Part shown: in pieces, positions 36,246 to 47,664 of the stretch
Numbering within the stretch: the first letter of the stretch is position 1
How the letters are laid out: the number at the start of each line of letters is the position of its first letter
Origin: Escherichia phage HildyBeyeler
Sequence record: MZ501074
Direction: 5' to 3' (one strand)
Length of the DNA stretch: 64,000 nucleotides
The notes under the pieces: model-generated
Seen by the model: the letters and a program-made list of their open reading frames with translations, nothing else
What the model was told of the DNA's origin: nothing
Databases searched by the model: none
Position numbers and translations under genes: made by a program

Positions 36246-36468
36246 ATATTAATAAATTAGAGAACAGCGGGCCGATTACGCTGAGTGCAGAATCCAAACC
36301 GGAGTGCATTGAATAGAGTCGGTGGGTTAGTTGTAAAACTAGTACACAGTGGGCGGCAATCCCGGTTAGTGGCTAGAACGTGTAAAATGGGGCGTCTGAA
36401 ACCTCTCCCCTAAACTCTTCTCTAGTTTATAAATAGTGGGGTGTGGAAATCACTTATGTAGTAACACT

Positions 36469-36540
36469 GCCGATCTAGTATAAACGGTATTATCAAGCCG
36501 TAACTGGTGGAAGATGTAGGTTCGAATCCTACGATCGGTA
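36469..36540 (+). other. tRNA-like minihelix element (7-bp acceptor-like stem plus T-arm; no anticodon arm found)
   Basis: GCCGATC at 36469-75 pairs with GATCGGT at 36533-39; GTAGG-TTCGAAT-CCTAC T-arm at 36516-32; interior does not fold into D and anticodon arms. Confidence 0.3.
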
Positions 36541-37041
36541 AGAACTGGATAACTGGTGCTTTTAACGTAAAAGCTTCCGAGGTTAGTTGCGCACTGCCTA
36601 AACCACGCGGTAGTTGGTTCCAGACTAACCAACCAGTCTGCTGAATAGTTTTATTACGATTTAACTATGTCCAGGCTAAAGAAGAACTTTAGAAGGTATT
36701 CTAGGTGGTGAAGTTTTTCCTCCATATCGGAGTAGTTTTTCAAGCTACCAACAAAGTGGGAAATGCTGACATGAGAGATGTCACTAATGGTGCACAATAG
36801 CACAGGTAATTCGCGATAACTCCTGTTGAGTAGCAGCAAAAGGCGGGAAGTCATGACCCCAAGCCTAACCGAGTCCTCAATATACCGCAGGACATAACCA
36901 CTAAGTCACCCTGACTTAAACTGGAAAATAATAGACGTTACTGTATTTTGTCTTGAAATACTTAATGAGTGAGACTTATGACTCTCCCGGTATCGTCTGT
37001 ATTTTTAAGAGTTTTTACGAGAGTTCTTAAAAATACTTAAA

Positions 37042-39019: not shown

Positions 39020-39097
39020 GGTTCTCAAGCTCATATGGTATGAGCACCCAGCTCATAACTGGAAGGTACGTAGGTTCGAATCCTCGGGGAGCCACCA
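39020..39097 (+). tRNA. tRNA-Met or Ile2 (anticodon CAU), CCA encoded
   Basis: Acceptor GGTTCTC/GGGAGCC with G-U pairs, D-stem GCTC/GAGC, anticodon loop CU-CAU-AA, TTCGAAT T-loop; T-stem imperfect. Confidence 0.6.
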
Positions 39098-40887: not shown

Positions 40888-40962
40888 GCACCTTTAGCTG
40901 AGATGGATTAGCGCTTGCCTGAAGAGCTTGAGAGGTTGGATCGTTACCAACGGGGTGCACCA
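40888..40962 (+). tRNA. possible tRNA-Phe (anticodon GAA), CCA encoded; non-canonical T-loop
   Basis: Acceptor GCACCTT/GGGGTGC and D-stem GCTG/TAGC are clean; anticodon stem has two U-U mismatches; T-loop AUCGUUA. Confidence 0.4.
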
Positions 40963-41549: not shown

Positions 41550-41635
41550 GGGTCGTTGGCTGAACGGTTTAAGCGCCGGACTGTTAATCCGTATCCGCAA
41601 GGATAAAGTAGGTTCAACTCCTACACGGCCCGCCA
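41550..41635 (+). tRNA. tRNA with anticodon GUU (Asn-type) but a long variable arm, CCA encoded
   Basis: Acceptor GGGTCGT/ACGGCCC, 3-bp D-stem, anticodon loop CU-GUU-AA, 15-nt extra arm with GCAA loop, T-arm GTAGG-TTCAACT-CCTAC, G73. Confidence 0.55.
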
Positions 41636-42292: not shown

Positions 42293-42640
42293 ATGATTAA
42301 TGCTAAAGAAGAATTGTTACTTGCCCTAAAGAATACTAATTCTGAAGTTAAGTGTATTAAGATAGAATTCGGTTATTATGGGGACAAAGAAGTTTTGGTA
42401 TTACCCATAGGTTACACAGAAAAAGATATTGAAGATTTTCTAAATAATCTAGACTTTAAATATGATTCTGGTTTCGGTGGACAATTGCTTTATGGTAACG
42501 TATGGTTTACTGATGGAACTTGGTTAGAACGTGGTGAATATGATGGTTCTGAATGGTGGGAATATAAGACTACACCAGCAATTCCAGAGGAATGCCGAAC
42601 AATTAATGGTGAAGTAGATCGTACTTTACTATTAAATTAA
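42293..42640 (+). CDS. hypothetical protein (115 aa)
   Basis: ORF track. Confidence 0.5.
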   Translation: MINAKEELLLALKNTNSEVKCIKIEFGYYGDKEVLVLPIGYTEKDIEDFLNNLDFKYDSGFGGQLLYGNVWFTDGTWLERGEYDGSEWWEYKTTPAIPEECRTINGEVDRTLLLN

Positions 42641-42762
42641 CAAAATCTCAGTGCAGAACACGGAGCTAGCAATTCGGAAATGCTGACTCATGATAAGCTG
42701 CCTATGTACTTGCGAAGCGGTCGTGTCCAAGACTCGGACTCTTGCACTGAAAACAATCAAAC

Positions 42763-42883
42763 ATTCTAGCGTGGTTGATGGGGAAACCAGCTTGGCTAGG
42801 GCAGAAGCTCGTTCGATTCGAGTGAAAGAATGGTTCTCGTAAGTCCGCACAAGTGATAACAGGTTCGAGTCCTGTCTAGAATG
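42763..42883 (+). ncRNA. candidate structured RNA (121 nt) with tRNA-like termini
   Basis: ATTCTAG at 42763-69 pairs perfectly with CTAGAAT at 42876-82; T-arm-like ACAGG-TTCGAGT-CCTGT before the 3' strand; internal GCTCG-TTCGATT-CGAGT hairpin. Confidence 0.35.
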
Positions 42884-42897
42884 ACACTATAAAGTTT

Positions 42898-43012
42898 ACT
42901 TATTATGTAGGTTCCGATAGACCGGCGGGTCTATTCTGGCATTTAAGAGAGGTCTCGCAAACTTCTTTGTCAGCCGTGGGGTTGATAGCCCCCAGGTGGC
43001 CTACACAATAAG
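42898..43012 (+). repeat. 14-bp inverted repeat (13 of 14 pairs) enclosing about 87 nt of hairpin-rich sequence
   Basis: ACTTATTATGTAGG at 42898-911 pairs with CCTACACAATAAGT at 42999-43012; internal hairpins ATAGACC/GGTCTAT and GGGG/CCCC. Confidence 0.65.
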
Positions 43013-43032
43013 TAAATTTATGAAAAATGTAG

Positions 43033-43061
43033 TTGCTATTTAGCTTAATTCTCTGTATAAT
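43033..43061 (+). promoter_or_regulatory. sigma70 promoter (TTGCTA, 17 bp, TATAAT)
   Basis: Precedes HNH gene 43094-43669. Confidence 0.65.
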
Positions 43062-43093: not shown

Positions 43094-43669
43094 ATGGAAG
43101 GATTTAAACCAATACCCGAGTATCCAGAATACTTAGTATCTGAGAAGGGAGAAATATACTCCACTATCAGTAATAAATATTTAAAACCTACCATAAACGG
43201 GAGCGGCTATTACCACTTTGCAGTACGTGAAGATACTAATGAGTATAGATGGCTTCTGCTGCACAGAGTTATATGCAGGGTTTATGGTAATCTCCCCTCT
43301 TTAGATAGTGAAATGGAAGTAGATCATAATGATTGTAATAGGCTTAATATACTCCCTAGTAATTTAGTTGCCAGAGAGAAGAAAGATCATTACGATAAAA
43401 CTACACTGGAGAGAGGAAAAACTATAGGGGGCACTAGATGTATAGTCTGTAATAAGAGGATACACTCTGGTCGAGAATACTGCATAAATTGCAGTCCAGT
43501 TAAACAGACTAAATCCCCAGAGATTACCGCAGAACAGATAGAATATTGGGTATCAAAGTATTCCTGGACTAGAGCTGCAAAAGAGTTAAATTTATCTGAT
43601 AATGGTCTACGAAAACGGTATACTAAATTAACAGGTAAATCCCCAAAAGAAATTAAAAAATCAGGGTAA
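43094..43669 (+). CDS. HNH homing endonuclease (191 aa)
   Basis: HNH motif EVDHNDCNRLNILPSNL and zinc-ribbon CIVCNKRIHSGREYCINC; last 8 nt overlap the 5' end of tRNA-Pro. Confidence 0.75.
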   Translation: MEGFKPIPEYPEYLVSEKGEIYSTISNKYLKPTINGSGYYHFAVREDTNEYRWLLLHRVICRVYGNLPSLDSEMEVDHNDCNRLNILPSNLVAREKKDHYDKTTLERGKTIGGTRCIVCNKRIHSGREYCINCSPVKQTKSPEITAEQIEYWVSKYSWTRAAKELNLSDNGLRKRYTKLTGKSPKEIKKSG

Positions 43670-43739
43670 GGGCGATAAGGTACGCCACCTCGTTTGGGGC
43701 GAGGAAATCTTTAGAGTTCGAATCTCTATACCCTGACCA
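43662..43739 (+). tRNA. tRNA-Pro (anticodon UGG), CCA encoded
   Basis: Acceptor CAGGGTA/TACCCTG, D-stem GGCG/CGCC, anticodon arm CCTCG-UUUGGGG-CGAGG, T-loop TTCGAAT. Confidence 0.75.
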
Positions 43740-43745
43740 AACAAT

Positions 43746-43821
43746 TGCGGGTGGGAGGCATAGAGTTCTTCTTAGTCTCATAAGCTAAGTAAGTCCAGGG
43801 CAGTACTGGAACCCGCTACCA
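43746..43821 (+). tRNA. tRNA with anticodon CAU (Met/fMet/Ile2-type), non-canonical T-loop, CCA encoded
   Basis: Anticodon arm TTAGT-CUCAUAA-GCTAA, T-arm TCCAG-GGCAGTA-CTGGA, acceptor 6 bp with a U1-U72 mismatch. Confidence 0.45.
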
Positions 43822-43839: not shown

Positions 43840-43868
43840 TTGCTTAATGCTTAATTTCTTGTTATAAT
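43840..43868 (+). promoter_or_regulatory. sigma70 promoter (TTGCTT, 17 bp, TATAAT)
   Basis: Hexamers plus ATTTATATAAATTGATG box; followed by about 330 nt with no ORF. Confidence 0.65.
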
Positions 43869-44204
43869 ATTTATATAAATTGATGCGAAAATAGCTGCCT
43901 AGATACCAGGTGTATGACGTCTACACTAGCAGAGCTACCGAAAAAGAGATCCCCAGGATAAACGTCGTAGCAAAATTAGTCTGGTATCCATCAATTTAGT
44001 TCACTAAGGTATTAGCTCGACCTAGGACTGGCTGCCAAAAAGCACGATCCCTACGATTCGGGAGAAGTTCTAGATTAGTCCACTAGATTCAGCGGCAACT
44101 GAATAGTGTATTGGGTTTGCGAGATGACGCAGTTCCTTCCGCTCGAAGCGAAGGTGCTGTAGTTACGCCGAGCTAATAGCCTTAGTAAACTAGAAGGAAT
44201 ATCT

Positions 44205-44479: not shown

Positions 44480-44558
44480 GGGGGATGGGTCTGCTGGGAG
44501 TGGACACCTCGCTTGCACCGAGGACATCAGAACGATTCGAATTCGTTATCCTCCACCA
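44480..44558 (+). tRNA. tRNA-Ala (anticodon UGC), CCA encoded
   Basis: Acceptor GGGGGAT/ATCCTCC with G3-U70, anticodon arm CCTCG-CUUGCAC-CGAGG, T-loop TTCGAAT. Confidence 0.7.
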
Positions 44559-45000: not shown

Positions 45001-45091
45001 GGAAGAGCAAATCGAATTGGCGACGAAAACCGCTTGGAAAGTGGCTGACCGGTAAAACGGCTTGAGAGTTCAAATCTCTCCTCTTCCGCCA
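45001..45091 (+). tRNA. tRNA-Ser (anticodon GGA), long variable arm, CCA encoded
   Basis: Acceptor GGAAGAG/CTCTTCC, anticodon loop UU-GGA-AA, 18-nt extra arm, T-arm GAGAG-TTCAAAT-CTCTC, G73. Confidence 0.65.
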
Positions 45092-45103
45092 AACAATTTA
45101 TAT

Positions 45104-45198
45104 GGTAGGTCAATCCAACGGCTGGCGCTGGACTCCGACTTGAAATCGGTTGATCGTAGTGATACGGTGTAAGGGTTCGATCCCCTTACCTACCTCCA
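45104..45198 (+). tRNA. tRNA-Ser (anticodon UGA), long variable arm, CCA encoded
   Basis: Acceptor GGTAGGT/ACCTACC, anticodon arm CCGA-CUUGAAA-TCGG, long extra arm, T-arm AAGGG-TTCGATC-CCCTT. Confidence 0.6.
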
Positions 45199-45450
45199 AA
45201 TCTTGAAGTATGCCGGAATCGGTAGACGGGGCTGCCTAAAAGGTTTATAGGGAACATCCACTCCCTGCAACATACCTCATAAAGCGGCTGAGATAAATGG
45301 TCTATCTCGTGAAGGTTCAAGTCCTTCTGCTTCTTGATACATCTATGGCTCAAAGTGTAACGGTGCTATTTGATGCTCTTGGTAAGACTTCCCCGACATG
45401 CGTTCGGGAGTAAGCTGCTAAGACTAGAGTAGAAGAGTTTCTGAGAGCCG

Positions 45451-45568
45451 CCACAATTGAAAATTCGTACTCGTCTTGAGCTGCGTGCAATAGGAGATAA
45501 CTTGATTAGTATTCTAGAACATGCTAATTGAGGATGGTTTCGCTAACCCTGCGAGTTTTCAATTGTGG
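45451..45568 (+). repeat. 13-bp perfect inverted repeat (CCACAATTGAAAA / TTTTCAATTGTGG) enclosing about 92 nt
   Basis: Arms at 45451-63 and 45556-68; the 3' arm runs into the acceptor stem of tRNA-His. Confidence 0.75.
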
Positions 45569-46773: not shown

Positions 46774-46860
46774 GCTGGGTTGGCAGAATGGTTGAATGCA
46801 CCTGATTTGTAATCAGGAGGAGTAATCCCGTTGCAGGTTCGAATCCTGTGCCCAGCACCA
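46774..46860 (+). tRNA. tRNA with anticodon UGU (Thr-type) but a long variable arm, CCA encoded
   Basis: Acceptor GCTGGGT/GCCCAGC, 3-bp D-stem, anticodon arm CCTGA-UUUGUAA-TCAGG, 15-nt extra arm with GTAA loop, T-arm GCAGG-TTCGAAT-CCTGT, A73. Confidence 0.55.
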
Positions 46861-47415: not shown

Positions 47416-47491
47416 GCTTCGGTAGCTTAGCGATCTAAAGCACTCGGCTGATAACCGAGAGATCAGGGGTTTAAATCCCTCCCGGAGTACC
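47416..47491 (+). tRNA. tRNA-Ile (anticodon GAU), CCA encoded
   Basis: Acceptor GCTTCGG/CCGGAGT, D-stem GCTT/AAGC, anticodon arm CTCGG-CUGAUAA-CCGAG, T-loop TTTAAAT. Confidence 0.7.
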
Positions 47492-47510
47492 AAATCTAGG
47501 AATTAAGACT

Positions 47511-47594
47511 ATGCGTCCAGGAAAGTTTAAAAAAGCTAGTTGGTCTAAAGAGTACAAAGAATACTTACTTAGCCTAGTAAAACGTAATAGTTAG
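47511..47594 (+). CDS. hypothetical small peptide (27 aa) between tRNA-Ile and tRNA-Met
   Basis: AGGA RBS; 3' end overlaps the tRNA-Met 5' end by 2 nt. Confidence 0.25.
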
Positions 47595-47664
47595 TTGGCA
47601 GAGTGGTTATGCGCCTCCTTCATACGGAGCGACTACAGTGGTTCAAATCCACTACTAACTACCA
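47593..47664 (+). tRNA. tRNA-Met or Ile2 (anticodon CAU), CCA encoded
   Basis: Acceptor AGTTGGC/ACTAACT (one mismatch), anticodon loop UU-CAU-AC, T-arm AGTGG-TTCAAAT-CCACT; short D-arm. Confidence 0.55.

What the first reader, a model, noticed from the sequence alone, without database searches (positions are those of the whole stretch)
43746..43821. A third CAU-anticodon tRNA with a non-canonical T-loop and a 1:72 mismatch
The anticodon arm (TTAGT-CUCAUAA-GCTAA) and encoded CCA are clear, but the T-loop reads GGCAGTA rather than TTCRANY and the acceptor has a U1-U72 mismatch. An unpaired 1:72 position is the hallmark of bacterial initiator tRNA. Together with the CAU tRNAs at 39020 and 47593 this could complete a Met, fMet and Ile2 trio.
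Basis: partly seen in the sequence, partly recalled or inferred. Interest (0 to 1): 0.45.

Follow-up and report, generated by a model that had tools for sequence, protein, structure and literature searches.

The report
Hidden phage initiator tRNA, rewired elbow
This is a real but unannotated tRNA gene of a T5-like phage, most likely its initiator (fMet) tRNA. The normally universal loop contacts that hold a tRNA in its L shape are replaced by a matching alternative set, so standard tRNA finders miss it.

Summary
Window 43746-43821 (+) folds as a 76-nt cloverleaf with anticodon CAU, U1·U72, encoded CCA and T-loop GGCAGTA.

- **Detection:** ARAGORN and the Rfam tRNA model both miss it.
- **Locus:** the window is a T5-like phage tRNA cluster. 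The candidate sits 6 nt after tRNA-Pro, where the curated phage 5/T5 record places initiator tRNA-fMet.
- **Divergence:** it is a distinct allele, 68% identical to the T5 form while neighbouring tRNAs are 97-100% identical. About 55 GenBank T5-like genomes carry it without any tRNA annotation.
- **Class:** it belongs to a phage class of at least 58 distinct sequences with T-loop GGCAG. These have 32 different T-stems, all fully paired. None has a G:C pair at 1:72, and 52 of 58 have G30:C40.
- **Independent test:** a covariance model built only from non-T5 members finds the candidate at 83.8 bits, E about 1e-17.
- **Elbow covariation:** across about 1,000 phage tRNAs, a T-loop with G55 goes with a D-loop lacking GG (AG in this class), p about 1e-38.

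Best reading: a functional initiator-type tRNA-Met with a rewired elbow. The three consecutive G-C pairs are absent and only the essential G30:C40 is kept. Function is inferred, not shown. I rate it a new variant of a known kind, of moderate-to-high interest.

The parts
43746..43821 (+). Unannotated tRNA gene, 76 nt, anticodon CAU. It is the variant allele of the T5-type initiator tRNA-fMet.
   Evidence: Sequence read. CM R1 hit at 83.8 bits, E about 1e-17, full length. Same position as tRNAfM of AJ604531.
43746..43752 (+). Acceptor stem 5' strand, U1 G2 C3 G4 G5 G6 U7. It pairs with 43811-43817 (A66..U72). U1·U72 is unpaired.
   Evidence: The acceptor stem is identical to that of the T5/phage 5 tRNA-fMet.
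43755..43770 (+). D arm. Stem GAGG (43755-43758) pairs with TCTT (43767-43770), giving A11:U24. The D-loop is CATAGAGT (43759-43766), with A18 at 43762 and G19 at 43763 in place of G18 G19. G8 is at 43753, and C at 43759 takes the place of A14.
   Evidence: RNAalifold chose this stem register independently on class members. The natural G10/A10 polymorphism keeps the pair with U25. AG in the D-loop is invariant in the alignment and present in 57 of 58 class members.
43772..43788 (+). Anticodon arm TTAGT-CTCATAA-GCTAA, anticodon CAU at 43779-43781. Stem pairs are A29:U41, G30:C40, U31·G39.
   Evidence: G30:C40 is present in 10/10 and 52/58 class members.
43794..43810 (+). T arm. Stem TCCAG/CTGGA with G53:C61. 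Non-canonical T-loop G54 G55 C56 A57 G58 U59 A60 at 43799-43805.
   Evidence: The T-stem is 100% paired with compensatory changes at 5/5 pairs and 99.7% paired over 60 distinct rows. There are 32 distinct T-stems in the class.
43818..43821 (+). Discriminator A73 and genome-encoded CCA.
   Evidence: 25 of 26 tRNA genes in the cluster encode CCA.
43662..43739 (+). tRNA-Pro(UGG), the upstream neighbour in the same transcription unit. It is 78/78 identical to phage 5.
43033..43061 (+). Sigma-70-like promoter TTGCTA-17-TATAAT, equivalent to P13a of phage 5. It probably drives hegB, tRNA-Pro and the candidate.
   Evidence: Consensus scan, 10 of 12 matches. Annotated promoter P13a at the homologous place in AJ604531.
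43094..43669 (+). ORF of 191 aa, homologous to hegB (H-N-H endonuclease F-TflIII of phage 5). Its 3' end overlaps tRNA-Pro by 8 nt.
   Evidence: ORF. (annotation under the match).
43840..43868 (+). Next promoter-like site, TTGCTT-17-TATAAT, the likely start of the following unit. It bounds the candidate's transcription unit on the 3' side.
   Evidence: Read from the sequence. This motif recurs upstream of several units in the cluster. It falls below the threshold of the scan, so it is an inference.
39020..39097 (+). CAU tRNA orthologous to tRNA-Ile2 of phage 5. It has G1:C72 paired and A30:U40.
   Evidence: Rfam tRNA, 38.2 bits. 76/78 identical to tRNAI2, and the two differences are a compensatory 30:40 change.
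47589..47664 (+). CAU tRNA orthologous to the elongator tRNA-Met of phage 5. It has A1:U72 paired and C30:G40.

Best explanation
Window 43746-43821 is a functional tRNA gene: the initiator-type tRNA-Met (tRNA-fMet) of this T5-like phage, in a variant form whose elbow has been rewired.

**Shown**
- It occupies the tRNA-fMet locus of T5/phage 5.
- It keeps the same acceptor stem and anticodon loop, but its D arm and T arm come from a different and widespread phage lineage.
- In that lineage all four helices are maintained by compensatory change.
- In that lineage the loop-loop contacts change together: G18·U55 becomes A18·G55 and U54·A58 becomes G54·G58. The outer G19:C56 pair and G53:C61 are kept. 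In the window's own sub-lineage U8·A14 is G8 with C at position 14.

**Inferred**
1. The RNA is made from the early promoter at 43033-43061 together with hegB and tRNA-Pro.
2. RNase P cuts it 5' of U43746, and it is trimmed to its encoded CCA.
3. It folds into a normal L shape through the alternative tertiary pairs.
4. Host MetRS charges it (anticodon CAU, A73).
5. Host formyltransferase formylates it (1:72 mismatch, G2:C71, C3:G70, A11:U24).
6. It enters the 30S P site through G30:C40 and supplies or replaces host initiator tRNA during infection.

**More speculative**
The rewired elbow removes U8, G18, U54 and U55. These are the sites read by host core-modification enzymes and by any nuclease directed at the T-loop. 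The phage tRNA would then fold without host modification and would escape elbow- or T-loop-directed attack. The G39 and U31·G39 stem end could likewise blunt VapC-type cleavage of initiator tRNA.
For: **Locus**
- The window is a T5-like phage.
- The candidate lies exactly where AJ604531 annotates initiator tRNA-fMet, after hegB and tRNA-Pro.
- Neighbouring tRNAs are 97-100% identical to phage 5, but this gene is only 56/82 identical. It is 83% identical to a tRNA on an unrelated 147-kb environmental phage contig, L126. That pattern is allele replacement, not decay in place.

**Conservation within T5-likes**
- The sequence is identical or nearly so in about 55 T5-like GenBank genomes, while the flanks differ.
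- The only polymorphisms in the tRNA body are G10/A10, which keeps the pair with U25, and U1/A1.

**The class**
- 58 distinct sequences from IMG/VR, metagenomes and GenBank.
- On 10 sequences, 94.8% of cells are paired, 12 pairs show double changes, and no shuffle of 500 reaches the observed values.
- On 60 distinct rows, 93.4% are paired and 21 of 21 pairs show double changes.
- RNAalifold predicts the same cloverleaf on its own.
- A covariance model built without any T5-like sequence scores the candidate at 83.8 bits.

**Initiator marks at class level** (positions 1 and 72, and the anticodon stem, were left free by the search pattern)
- 1:72 is a mismatch in 49/58 and a weak A:U or U:A pair in 9/58. 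It is never G:C.
- G30:C40 in 52/58 and A73 in 46/58.
- PMC5389676 states that the 1:72 mismatch together with 2:71 and 3:70 is the major formylase determinant. It also reports that G30:C40 alone is sufficient and essential, and that natural au/GC/gu initiators exist.
- PMC9976931 names the 1-72 mismatch and R11:Y24 as formyltransferase recognition elements.

**Elbow compensation**
- In 1,000 ARAGORN-detected phage tRNAs, U55 goes with GG in the D-loop (904 with, 43 without) and G55 goes without GG (6 with, 37 without). Fisher p = 1.6e-38.
- 54:58 takes only U:A, A:U, A:A, C:A and G:G apart from three singletons.
- U56 goes with GA and A56 with GT in the D-loop.
- GGCAG T-loops also occur on Asp, Gly, Gln, Glu, Ile and Lys tRNAs of two large phage contigs. 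The elbow is therefore used by ordinary elongator-type tRNAs as well.
Against: - There are no expression, charging or formylation data for this allele.
- Both general detectors fail, and the single-sequence fold is not significant and is not a full cloverleaf.
- The canonical three G-C pairs are missing. The third pair is U31·G39, a pyrimidine:purine pair. That differs from the natural 'gu' variants tested in PMC5389676, which have G31:U39.
- One natural T5-like variant (SP1a) has A1:U72 paired, and 9 of 58 class members have a weak Watson-Crick 1:72 pair.
- How a G54 G55 T-loop behaves on the ribosome, with RNase P or with CCA-end enzymes is untested.
- The defence-evasion part is speculation. 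Nothing here links the allele to a host system.
- Class statistics for the T-loop, anticodon loop and acceptor positions 2-7 and 66-71 were partly forced by the search patterns.
Confidence: 0.68

Rival explanations
1. It is a real, structured tRNA-like RNA that does not act in initiation. It could be a decoy or sponge for a host tRNA-targeting toxin or enzyme, an amino-acid donor outside the ribosome, or a regulator.
For: - The elbow lacks the universal G18, U54 and U55.
- The known bacterial tRNAs that lack G18 G19 U55 C56, the staphylococcal non-proteinogenic tRNA-Gly, work outside the ribosome (PMC4574755).
- T5-like tRNA regions hold several 'tRNA-like RNAs with unknown functions'.
- The three G-C pairs are absent.
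Against: - All elements needed for MetRS and formylase are kept and conserved across 58 sequences.
- CCA is encoded.
- The tertiary changes are compensated rather than lost, and G19:C56 is retained.
- The same T-loop sits on tRNAs of many anticodons in other phages.
- It replaces the canonical fMet allele rather than adding to it: the window has no other initiator-type tRNA.
Confidence: 0.14
2. It is a second elongator tRNA-Met, or a general CAU tRNA, and not an initiator.
For: - The anticodon stem is not 3GC.
- The SP1a variant has A1:U72 paired, and 9 of 58 class members have a weak pair.
Against: - The phage already has an elongator tRNA-Met with A1:U72 and C30:G40 at 47589.
- A 1:72 mismatch in 49 of 58 with never a G:C pair, G30:C40 in 52 of 58, and A11:U24 are initiator marks (PMC5389676, PMC9976931).
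- The orthologous T5 gene is curated as initiator.
Confidence: 0.1
3. It is a decaying pseudogene of the T5 tRNA-fMet that no longer makes a functional RNA.
For: - ARAGORN and Rfam do not see it.
- It lacks the canonical T-loop and D-loop GG.
- It is not annotated as a tRNA in any GenBank record shown.
Against: - The body is invariant in about 55 genomes while the flanks vary.
- Every helix is intact.
- The same loop motifs recur with 32 different, fully paired T-stems in unrelated phages.
- It is closer to an environmental phage tRNA (83%) than to the T5 allele (68%).
Confidence: 0.05
4. It is a chance cloverleaf-like sequence in an intergenic spacer.
For: The single-sequence fold has z = -1.13, and 25 of 200 shuffles fold at least as well.
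Against: - CM E-value of about 1e-17 from a model trained on other phages.
- Synteny with a curated tRNA gene.
- Conservation across genomes.
Confidence: 0.01

Closest known systems
Initiator tRNA-fMet of bacteriophage T5 / phage 5 (gene tRNAfM, AJ604531; canonical allele in about 364 GenBank T5-like records at >=95% identity)
   Same: - Same locus, 6 nt after tRNA-Pro and downstream of hegB.
- Identical acceptor stem with U1·U72.
- Identical anticodon loop, with A29:U41 / G30:C40 / U31·G39.
- A11:U24 and encoded CCA.
   Different: - The D arm, variable region, T stem and T loop are all replaced, giving 56/82 identity.
- The canonical allele has GG in the D-loop and T-loop TTCGATT, and is found by ARAGORN and annotated tRNA-Met.
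- The discriminator is U in phage 5 and A here.
- C27:G43 there is U27:A43 here, a compensatory change.
Escherichia coli initiator tRNA-fMet (metZWV, metY)
   Same: - G2-G6 of the acceptor stem, a 1:72 mismatch, A11:U24, G30:C40, the CUCAUAA loop and A73-CCA.
- The E. coli sequence was recalled from memory. The determinants are taken from PMC5389676 and PMC9976931.
   Different: - C1·A72 there, U1·U72 here.
- Full G29-G31 / C39-C41 stem there.
- Canonical U8, G18 G19 and T54 Psi55 there.
- Only about 61% identity, and no blastn match in 5,426 E. coli genomes.
Natural 'au/GC/gu' initiator tRNAs of some mycoplasmas and alpha-proteobacteria (PMC5389676)
   Same: Only the middle G30:C40 pair of the 3GC motif is kept. 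Such tRNAs can sustain E. coli.
   Different: - Their third pair is G31:U39, purine:pyrimidine. Here it is U31·G39.
- Their elbows are canonical.
Phage initiator-like tRNAs with T-loop UGCAAUA (Klebsiella phage vB_KpM_FBKp34, L141:3003-3079; Aeromonas phage LAh_6, L142:3004-3079)
   Same: - Nearly the same D arm, GG-GAGG-CA[G/C]AGAG-, with A18 G19, G8 and G55.
- 74-77% identity to the candidate, and 72 bits with model R1.
   Different: - They keep U54 and A58 and have a paired U1:A72.
- ARAGORN detects them.
Staphylococcal non-proteinogenic tRNA-Gly used for cell-wall pentaglycine (PMC4574755)
   Same: A bacterial-world tRNA that lacks the conserved G18 G19 / U55 C56 elbow residues.
   Different: - There the elbow pairs are lost (U18 U19 or C18 U19) rather than compensated.
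- That tRNA is kept off the ribosome.
- Here G19:C56 is retained and 18:55 and 54:58 covary.
Eukaryotic initiator tRNA with A54 and A60 in the T-loop (established knowledge; see PMC3950347 for conserved initiator features)
   Same: An initiator tRNA marked by a deviant T-loop.
   Different: - Different residues and a different domain of life.
- In phages the GGCAG loop is not restricted to initiators.

Membership tests
tRNA (general; Rfam RF00005, ARAGORN model) | Cloverleaf with a 7-bp acceptor stem, 3-4-bp D stem, 5-bp anticodon stem with a 7-nt loop (U33, purine 37), and 5-bp T stem with a 7-nt loop | tested here: met
   Read from the sequence. The same structure was predicted by RNAalifold on class members and is supported by covariation.
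tRNA (general; Rfam RF00005, ARAGORN model) | Conserved elbow residues U8, A14, G18 G19, T54 Psi55 C56 and A58 | tested here: not met
   The candidate has G8, C at position 14, A18 G19, and G54 G55 C56 A57 G58. Only G19, C56 and G53:C61 are kept.
tRNA (general; Rfam RF00005, ARAGORN model) | Detected by the family's model at its threshold | tested here: not met
   No ARAGORN call. No RF00005 match at E<=10.
Bacterial initiator tRNA-fMet | Anticodon CAU with discriminator A73 (MetRS identity) | tested here: met
   CAU at 43779-43781 and A at 43818.
Bacterial initiator tRNA-fMet | Unpaired 1:72 plus G2:C71 and C3:G70 (formylase determinants, PMC5389676) | tested here: met
   U1·U72, G2:C71 and C3:G70. 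In the class, 49 of 58 are mismatched and none has G:C.
Bacterial initiator tRNA-fMet | Purine11:pyrimidine24 in the D stem (PMC9976931) | tested here: met
   A11:U24 holds in either possible D-stem register. 28 of 51 alignable class rows have A:U at this pair.
Bacterial initiator tRNA-fMet | Three consecutive G:C pairs at 29:41, 30:40 and 31:39 | tested here: not met
   The pairs are A29:U41, G30:C40 and U31·G39. Only the middle pair is kept, and PMC5389676 reports that pair as the essential one.
Bacterial initiator tRNA-fMet | Methionylated, formylated and used in the P site | not testable with these tools
   This needs biochemistry or genetics. For phage T5 generally, only the title of a 1975 paper could be seen, and the paper itself is not held.
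Orthologue of the T5/phage 5 tRNAfM gene | Same genomic position and flanking genes | tested here: met
   The order hegB, tRNA-Pro, 6-nt spacer, gene is the same. The flanking tRNA-Pro is 78/78 identical.
Orthologue of the T5/phage 5 tRNAfM gene | Sequence continuity with the T5 gene | tested here: inconclusive
   Only the acceptor stem and the anticodon loop with part of its stem are shared, 56/82 overall. It is closer to an environmental phage tRNA (83%). It reads as a xenologous replacement at the same locus.
Phage GGCAG-T-loop tRNA class (defined here) | Match to covariance model R1, built from 10 non-T5 members | tested here: met
   83.8 bits, E about 1e-17, full length. This is in the same range as independent metagenomic members, mostly 51-89 bits.
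Phage GGCAG-T-loop tRNA class (defined here) | T-loop G54 G55 C56 A57 G58 with G53:C61, and a D-loop with AG instead of GG | tested here: met
   GGCAGTA with G53:C61, and D-loop CATAGAGT. Class figures are AG in 57 of 58 and GG in 7 of 58.

The most novel reading that the evidence does not exclude
The GGCAG/AG elbow (A18·G55, G54·G58, often without U8) is a distinct alternative tRNA architecture, apparently specific to phages. It makes phage tRNAs independent of, and invisible to, host factors that read the universal T-loop and D-loop residues. Those factors would include the modification enzymes for s4U8, Gm18, m5U54 and Psi55, and any nuclease or sensor directed at the T-loop or elbow. On this reading, T5-like phage populations keep canonical and rewired alleles side by side because of an arms race with such host factors. 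The polymorphism is seen at three loci: fMet, Phe (54:58 swap) and Ile (19:56 swap). A whole layer of phage tRNAs is also missing from annotation because the detectors assume the canonical elbow.
Probability: 0.25. Interest if true: 0.8.

Novelty: new variant of a known kind. Interest (0 to 1): 0.6.

Why it matters
**For annotation.** A conserved tRNA gene is missing from the records of about 55 sequenced T5-like phages, and from many environmental phages, because ARAGORN and the general tRNA covariance model require the canonical elbow. This affects work built on such counts. One published survey concluded that phages generally avoid encoding tRNA-fMet (PMC10264068), and hidden initiator tRNAs bear directly on that conclusion.

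**For tRNA biology.** These sequences give natural, compensated replacements of residues usually treated as universal (U8, G18, U54, U55, A58), with clear covariation rules:
- G18·U55 becomes A18·G55.
- U54·A58 becomes G54·G58 or A54·U58.
- G19:C56 becomes A19:U56 or U19:A56.

This makes the tolerance of RNase P, the ribosome, formylase and the modification enzymes for alternative elbows directly testable with natural sequences.

**For phage-host conflict.** Closely related phages carry either allele at the same locus. That provides a ready-made allele-swap experiment to ask whether any host defence reads the tRNA elbow.

Tried and rejected
**Approaches that gave nothing or misled**
- ARAGORN and Rfam gave no hit. 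I did not take this as refutation, because the comparative evidence is strong.
- The single-sequence fold was not informative.
- A MAFFT alignment of mixed-anticodon GGCAG tRNAs (A2) was structurally wrong in the 5' half, so I dropped it. I used a CAU-only set (A4) and a model-based alignment (A6) instead.
- One script call was empty by mistake.

**Hypotheses rejected**
- *The GGCAG loop is an initiator-specific mark.* Contigs L079 and L080 carry it on Asp, Gly, Gln, Glu, Ile and Lys tRNAs.
- *The allele travels with the upstream homing endonuclease hegB.* hegB is present at about 96% identity next to the canonical allele in phage 5 as well.
- *The fMet and Phe elbow variants form one haplotype.* They assort independently. 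For example S116 and GSW6 have the canonical fMet but the variant Phe.

**Scans with limited yield**
- The bacterial genome scan gave 114 hits, but only one is tRNA-like, on a 7.6-kb MAG contig. This shows rarity only for tRNAs with the U7:A66-type acceptor stem that the pattern required.

**Literature**
- Five of the searches and look-ups in two papers found no description of a GGCAG T-loop or of A18:G55 covariation. The library lacks most older and subscription papers, so this is absence of evidence only.
- PMC432352, the 1975 T5 fMet paper, is not held.
Full report
**1. The observation**

The stretch 43746-43821 on the + strand reads UGCGGGU-GG-GAGG-CAUAGAGU-UCUU-C-UUAGU-CUCAUAA-GCUAA-GUAAG-UCCAG-GGCAGUA-CUGGA-ACCCGCU-A-CCA. 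This is a 76-nt cloverleaf. It has six Watson-Crick acceptor pairs under an unpaired U1·U72, anticodon CAU, a 5-bp T stem closing the loop GGCAGUA, discriminator A and an encoded CCA.

ARAGORN finds 21 tRNAs in the window but not this one. The Rfam tRNA model gives no match at E<=10, either on the 12.5-kb cluster or on the 91-nt stretch alone. The minimum-energy fold of the single sequence keeps the acceptor and T arms but not the whole cloverleaf, and is no better than shuffles (z = -1.13). On its own, the sequence would not be convincing.

**2. Where it is**

The window is the tRNA region of a T5-like phage (Demerecviridae). A 1.7-kb query around the site matches 723 phage records, mostly Salmonella and Escherichia T5-likes.

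The best-annotated relative is AJ604531 (phage 5), curated by a group that studied these genes experimentally. Its order is promoter P13a, hegB (H-N-H endonuclease F-TflIII), tRNA-Pro, and then, 6 nt later, 'tRNA-Met; initiator tRNA-fMet', stated to be identical with its T5 counterpart.

The window has the same arrangement:
- a promoter-like site at 43033-43061;
- the hegB ORF at 43094-43669;
- tRNA-Pro at 43662-43739;
- a 6-nt spacer;
- the candidate.

The alignment is identical up to base 7 of the candidate and then breaks down. tRNA-Pro is 78/78 identical to phage 5, tRNA-Ile2 is 76/78 and elongator tRNA-Met is 74/76. The candidate is only 56/82 identical. What it shares with the T5 gene is the whole acceptor stem including U1·U72, the anticodon loop and three stem pairs. 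The D arm, variable region, T stem and T loop are different. The C27:G43 pair of T5 is U27:A43 here, a compensatory change.

The candidate is closer to a tRNA on an unrelated 147-kb environmental phage contig (L126, 83%) than to the T5 allele (68%). This looks like replacement of the gene by a xenologue at the same locus, not decay.

**3. It is conserved and unannotated**

The 91-nt stretch is at least 95% identical in about 55 GenBank T5-like records, including NR01, Stp1, Shivani, SHSML-45, DT57C, DT571/2, Gostya9 and Tennessee. In the rows shown, no tRNA is annotated under the match. One record has a 'hypothetical protein' there. The canonical allele is found in about 364 records at >=95% identity and is usually annotated tRNA-Met.

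Among seven carriers with different flanks, the tRNA body varies at only two positions:
- G10/A10, which turns G10·U25 into A10:U25;
- U1/A1 in phage SP1a.

The spacer, the end of tRNA-Pro and the downstream sequence all vary in the same set.

**4. It belongs to a broad phage class**

A pattern scan of IMG/VR for TGCGGGU...CUCAUAA...ACCCGCU showed that this acceptor type is common among phage CAU tRNAs. Several unrelated contigs share the GGCAG T-loop on different T stems. Scans that required the T-loop gave more members from IMG/VR and from metagenomes. Together they make 58 distinct sequences.

In these 58:
- the T stem is always 5/5 paired, with 32 different stem sequences;
- G53:C61 holds in 52;
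- the D-loop contains AG in 57 and GG in only 7.

At positions the patterns left free:
- 1:72 is UU 27, CA 13, UA 6, CU 3, AA 3, AU 3, AC 2, UC 1, and never G:C or C:G;
- 30:40 is G:C in 52;
- position 73 is A in 46;
- CCA is encoded in 39.

Formal pair counts agree. On 10 non-T5 members, 94.8% of cells are paired, 12 pairs have changes on both sides, and none of 500 shuffles reaches the observed values, while slid controls give 32-48% paired. On 60 distinct rows, 93.4% are paired and all 21 pairs have changes on both sides. RNAalifold predicts the same cloverleaf without guidance, with 1:72 left open.

A covariance model built from those 10 sequences hits 43746-43821 full length at 83.8 bits, E about 1e-17. 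The next tRNA in the window reaches 27.7 bits.

The same pattern run on one genome from each of 185,579 bacterial and archaeal species gave 114 hits. Only one is tRNA-like, on a 7.6-kb MAG contig. There is no match in 5,426 complete E. coli genomes. For this acceptor type, the class is essentially a phage one.

**5. The elbow is rewired, not broken**

Of these, 1,000 have a perfect T stem.
- T-loops with U55 go with GG in the D-loop (904 with, 43 without).
- T-loops with G55 go without GG (6 with, 37 without). Fisher p = 1.6e-38.
- In the G55 loops (UGCAA, UGCGA, AGCGU, AGCAU, GGCGG) the D-loop reads AG where GG is expected.
- Loops with U56 have GA, and loops with A56 have GU.
- The 54:58 pair is U:A 943, A:U 30, A:A 14, C:A 6 and G:G 4, with three singletons. 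Most GGCAG members are missed by ARAGORN and so are not in this count.

In the candidate, the usual tertiary pairs therefore appear as follows:
- G18·Psi55 is A18·G55.
- T54·A58 is G54·G58.
- The outer pair G19:C56, the purine at 57 and G53:C61 are kept.
- U8 and A14 are G8 and C, as in about half of the class.

The GGCAG loop is not limited to CAU tRNAs. Two large phage contigs carry it on Asp, Gly, Gln, Glu, Ile and Lys tRNAs, next to other variant loops. It is therefore a general alternative elbow used by phage tRNAs, and presumably compatible with translation.

This window itself has two more compensated variants:
- tRNA-Phe at 40888-40962 has the loop AUCGUUA where phage 5 has UUCGAUA, a 54:58 swap.
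- tRNA-Ile(GAU) at 47416-47492 has UUUAAAU with GA in the D-loop, an A19:U56 pair.

The Phe variant allele is in about 80 GenBank records and assorts independently of the fMet variant.

**6. What it most likely does**

The candidate alone has the initiator marks: 1:72 mismatch, G2:C71, C3:G70, A11:U24, A73 and G30:C40. The elongator has A1:U72 and C30:G40. Ile2 has G1:C72 and A30:U40.

PMC5389676 states that the mismatch together with 2:71 and 3:70 is the major determinant for the formylase. It also reports that, of the three G:C pairs, the middle G30:C40 suffices and is essential in E. coli, and that natural au/GC/gu initiators exist. PMC9976931 names the 1-72 mismatch and R11:Y24 as formyltransferase recognition elements. 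[quoted passage not shown]

I therefore think the RNA is processed out of the hegB/tRNA-Pro transcript, charged by host MetRS, formylated, and used for initiation in the infected cell. These steps are inferred.

Points against:
- The 3GC motif is not met, and the third pair is U31·G39, a different orientation from the tested natural variants.
- One T5-like variant has A1:U72 paired.
- Nothing is known about how a G54 G55 loop behaves with RNase P, the ribosome or the CCA-end enzymes.

**7. Why a rewired elbow**

This part is speculation. The changes remove U8, G18, U54 and U55. From established knowledge, these are the substrates in E. coli of ThiI, TrmH, TrmA and TruB. Such a tRNA could fold without host modification and would not be recognised by anything that reads those residues.

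Phage tRNAs are currently thought to replace host tRNAs that defence nucleases destroy (PMC10264068, and the titles found). Enteric VapC toxins cleave initiator tRNA (reference listed in PMC10264068). From memory, the cut is between A38 and C39, and both T5 alleles have G39. Also from memory, at least one contact-dependent inhibition toxin cuts tRNA between T54 and Psi55. Both recollections are leads, not tests.

Canonical and variant alleles coexist at three tRNA loci in otherwise near-identical phages. That pattern would fit such selection, but it would also fit neutral exchange of functionally equivalent cassettes.

**8. Known or new**

The gene's kind (phage initiator tRNA) and its locus are known. 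This allele, the GGCAG/AG elbow and its covariation rules were not found described in the held literature. That library omits most older and subscription papers. I rate it a new variant of a known kind.

**9. Verdict**

| Question | Assessment |
|---|---|
| Observation | Confirmed |
| Real, conserved tRNA gene | About 0.9 |
| Initiator function | About 0.65-0.7 |
| Counter-defence or modification-independence role of the elbow | About 0.25 |
| Interest | 0.6 |

Noticed in passing
window 40888-40962 (+): tRNA-Phe(GAA) is missed by ARAGORN and scores 33.4 bits with Rfam. Its T-loop is ATCGTTA (A54, U58), where the phage 5 orthologue has TTCGATA, so 54:58 is swapped, and the T stem differs too. 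The variant allele is in about 80 GenBank T5-like records, is often unannotated, and assorts independently of the fMet variant.
   Followed up: partly
window 47416-47492 (+): tRNA-Ile(GAU) has T-loop TTTAAAT (U56) and D-loop AGCGATCTA (GA instead of GG). This is a compensated A19:U56 elbow pair.
   Followed up: no
window 39020-39097 (+): tRNA-Ile2 (CAU) is missed by ARAGORN but found by Rfam at 38.2 bits. It differs from phage 5 only by a compensatory change at 30:40 (A:U here, G:C there).
   Followed up: partly
window 45001-45091 and 45104-45198 (+): Two long-arm tRNAs, at the positions of tRNA-Ser2 and tRNA-Ser1 in phage 5, are missed by ARAGORN. Rfam matches them only through the tRNA-Sec model, at 21 and 38.3 bits, below its threshold.
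   Followed up: no
window 36468-36541 (+): ARAGORN calls a 'tRNA-Ser' with anticodon ACT, and Rfam scores it as tRNA at 39 bits. It has no encoded CCA, unlike the other 25 tRNA genes of the cluster. It may be a tRNA-like RNA rather than a tRNA.
   Followed up: no
window 41550-41635 and 46774-46860 (+): tRNA-Asn (86 nt) and tRNA-Thr (87 nt) carry long variable arms, which is unusual for these isotypes. The phage 5 record notes that the corresponding genes become amber suppressors when the anticodon is changed.
   Followed up: no
window 42640-43020, 43880-44200, 45200-45560 (+): These are long non-coding stretches between tRNA genes, at the positions where phage 5 annotates stable or tRNA-like RNAs of unknown function (RNA2, RNAIV, RNA 2H, RNA1, RNA I, RNA III). 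Some end in T-arm-like hairpins, for example caggttcgagtcctg near 42860.
   Followed up: no
window 43662-43669 (+): The hegB homing-endonuclease ORF (43094-43669) overlaps the first 8 nt of tRNA-Pro. tRNA-Pro (43662-43739) and tRNA-Ala (44480-44558) are found by ARAGORN but not by the Rfam tRNA model at E<=10.
   Followed up: no
L080 (IMGVR_UViG_3300032770_000007), whole locus; also L079: In a 126-kb environmental phage contig, roughly half of the tRNA genes found carry non-canonical T-loops of many kinds: TGCAA, TGCGA, GGCAG, GGCGG, AGCGT, AGCAT, CGCAA, TTAAA, TTAGA and TTTGA. Each has the matching D-loop change.
   Followed up: partly
L141:3003-3079 (Klebsiella phage vB_KpM_FBKp34) and L142:3004-3079 (Aeromonas phage LAh_6): Initiator-like CAU tRNAs with the same D arm as the candidate but T-loop TGCAATA are not annotated as tRNAs in these GenBank records. 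One lies in a gap between annotated tRNAs, and the other is under a 'hypothetical protein' CDS.
   Followed up: partly
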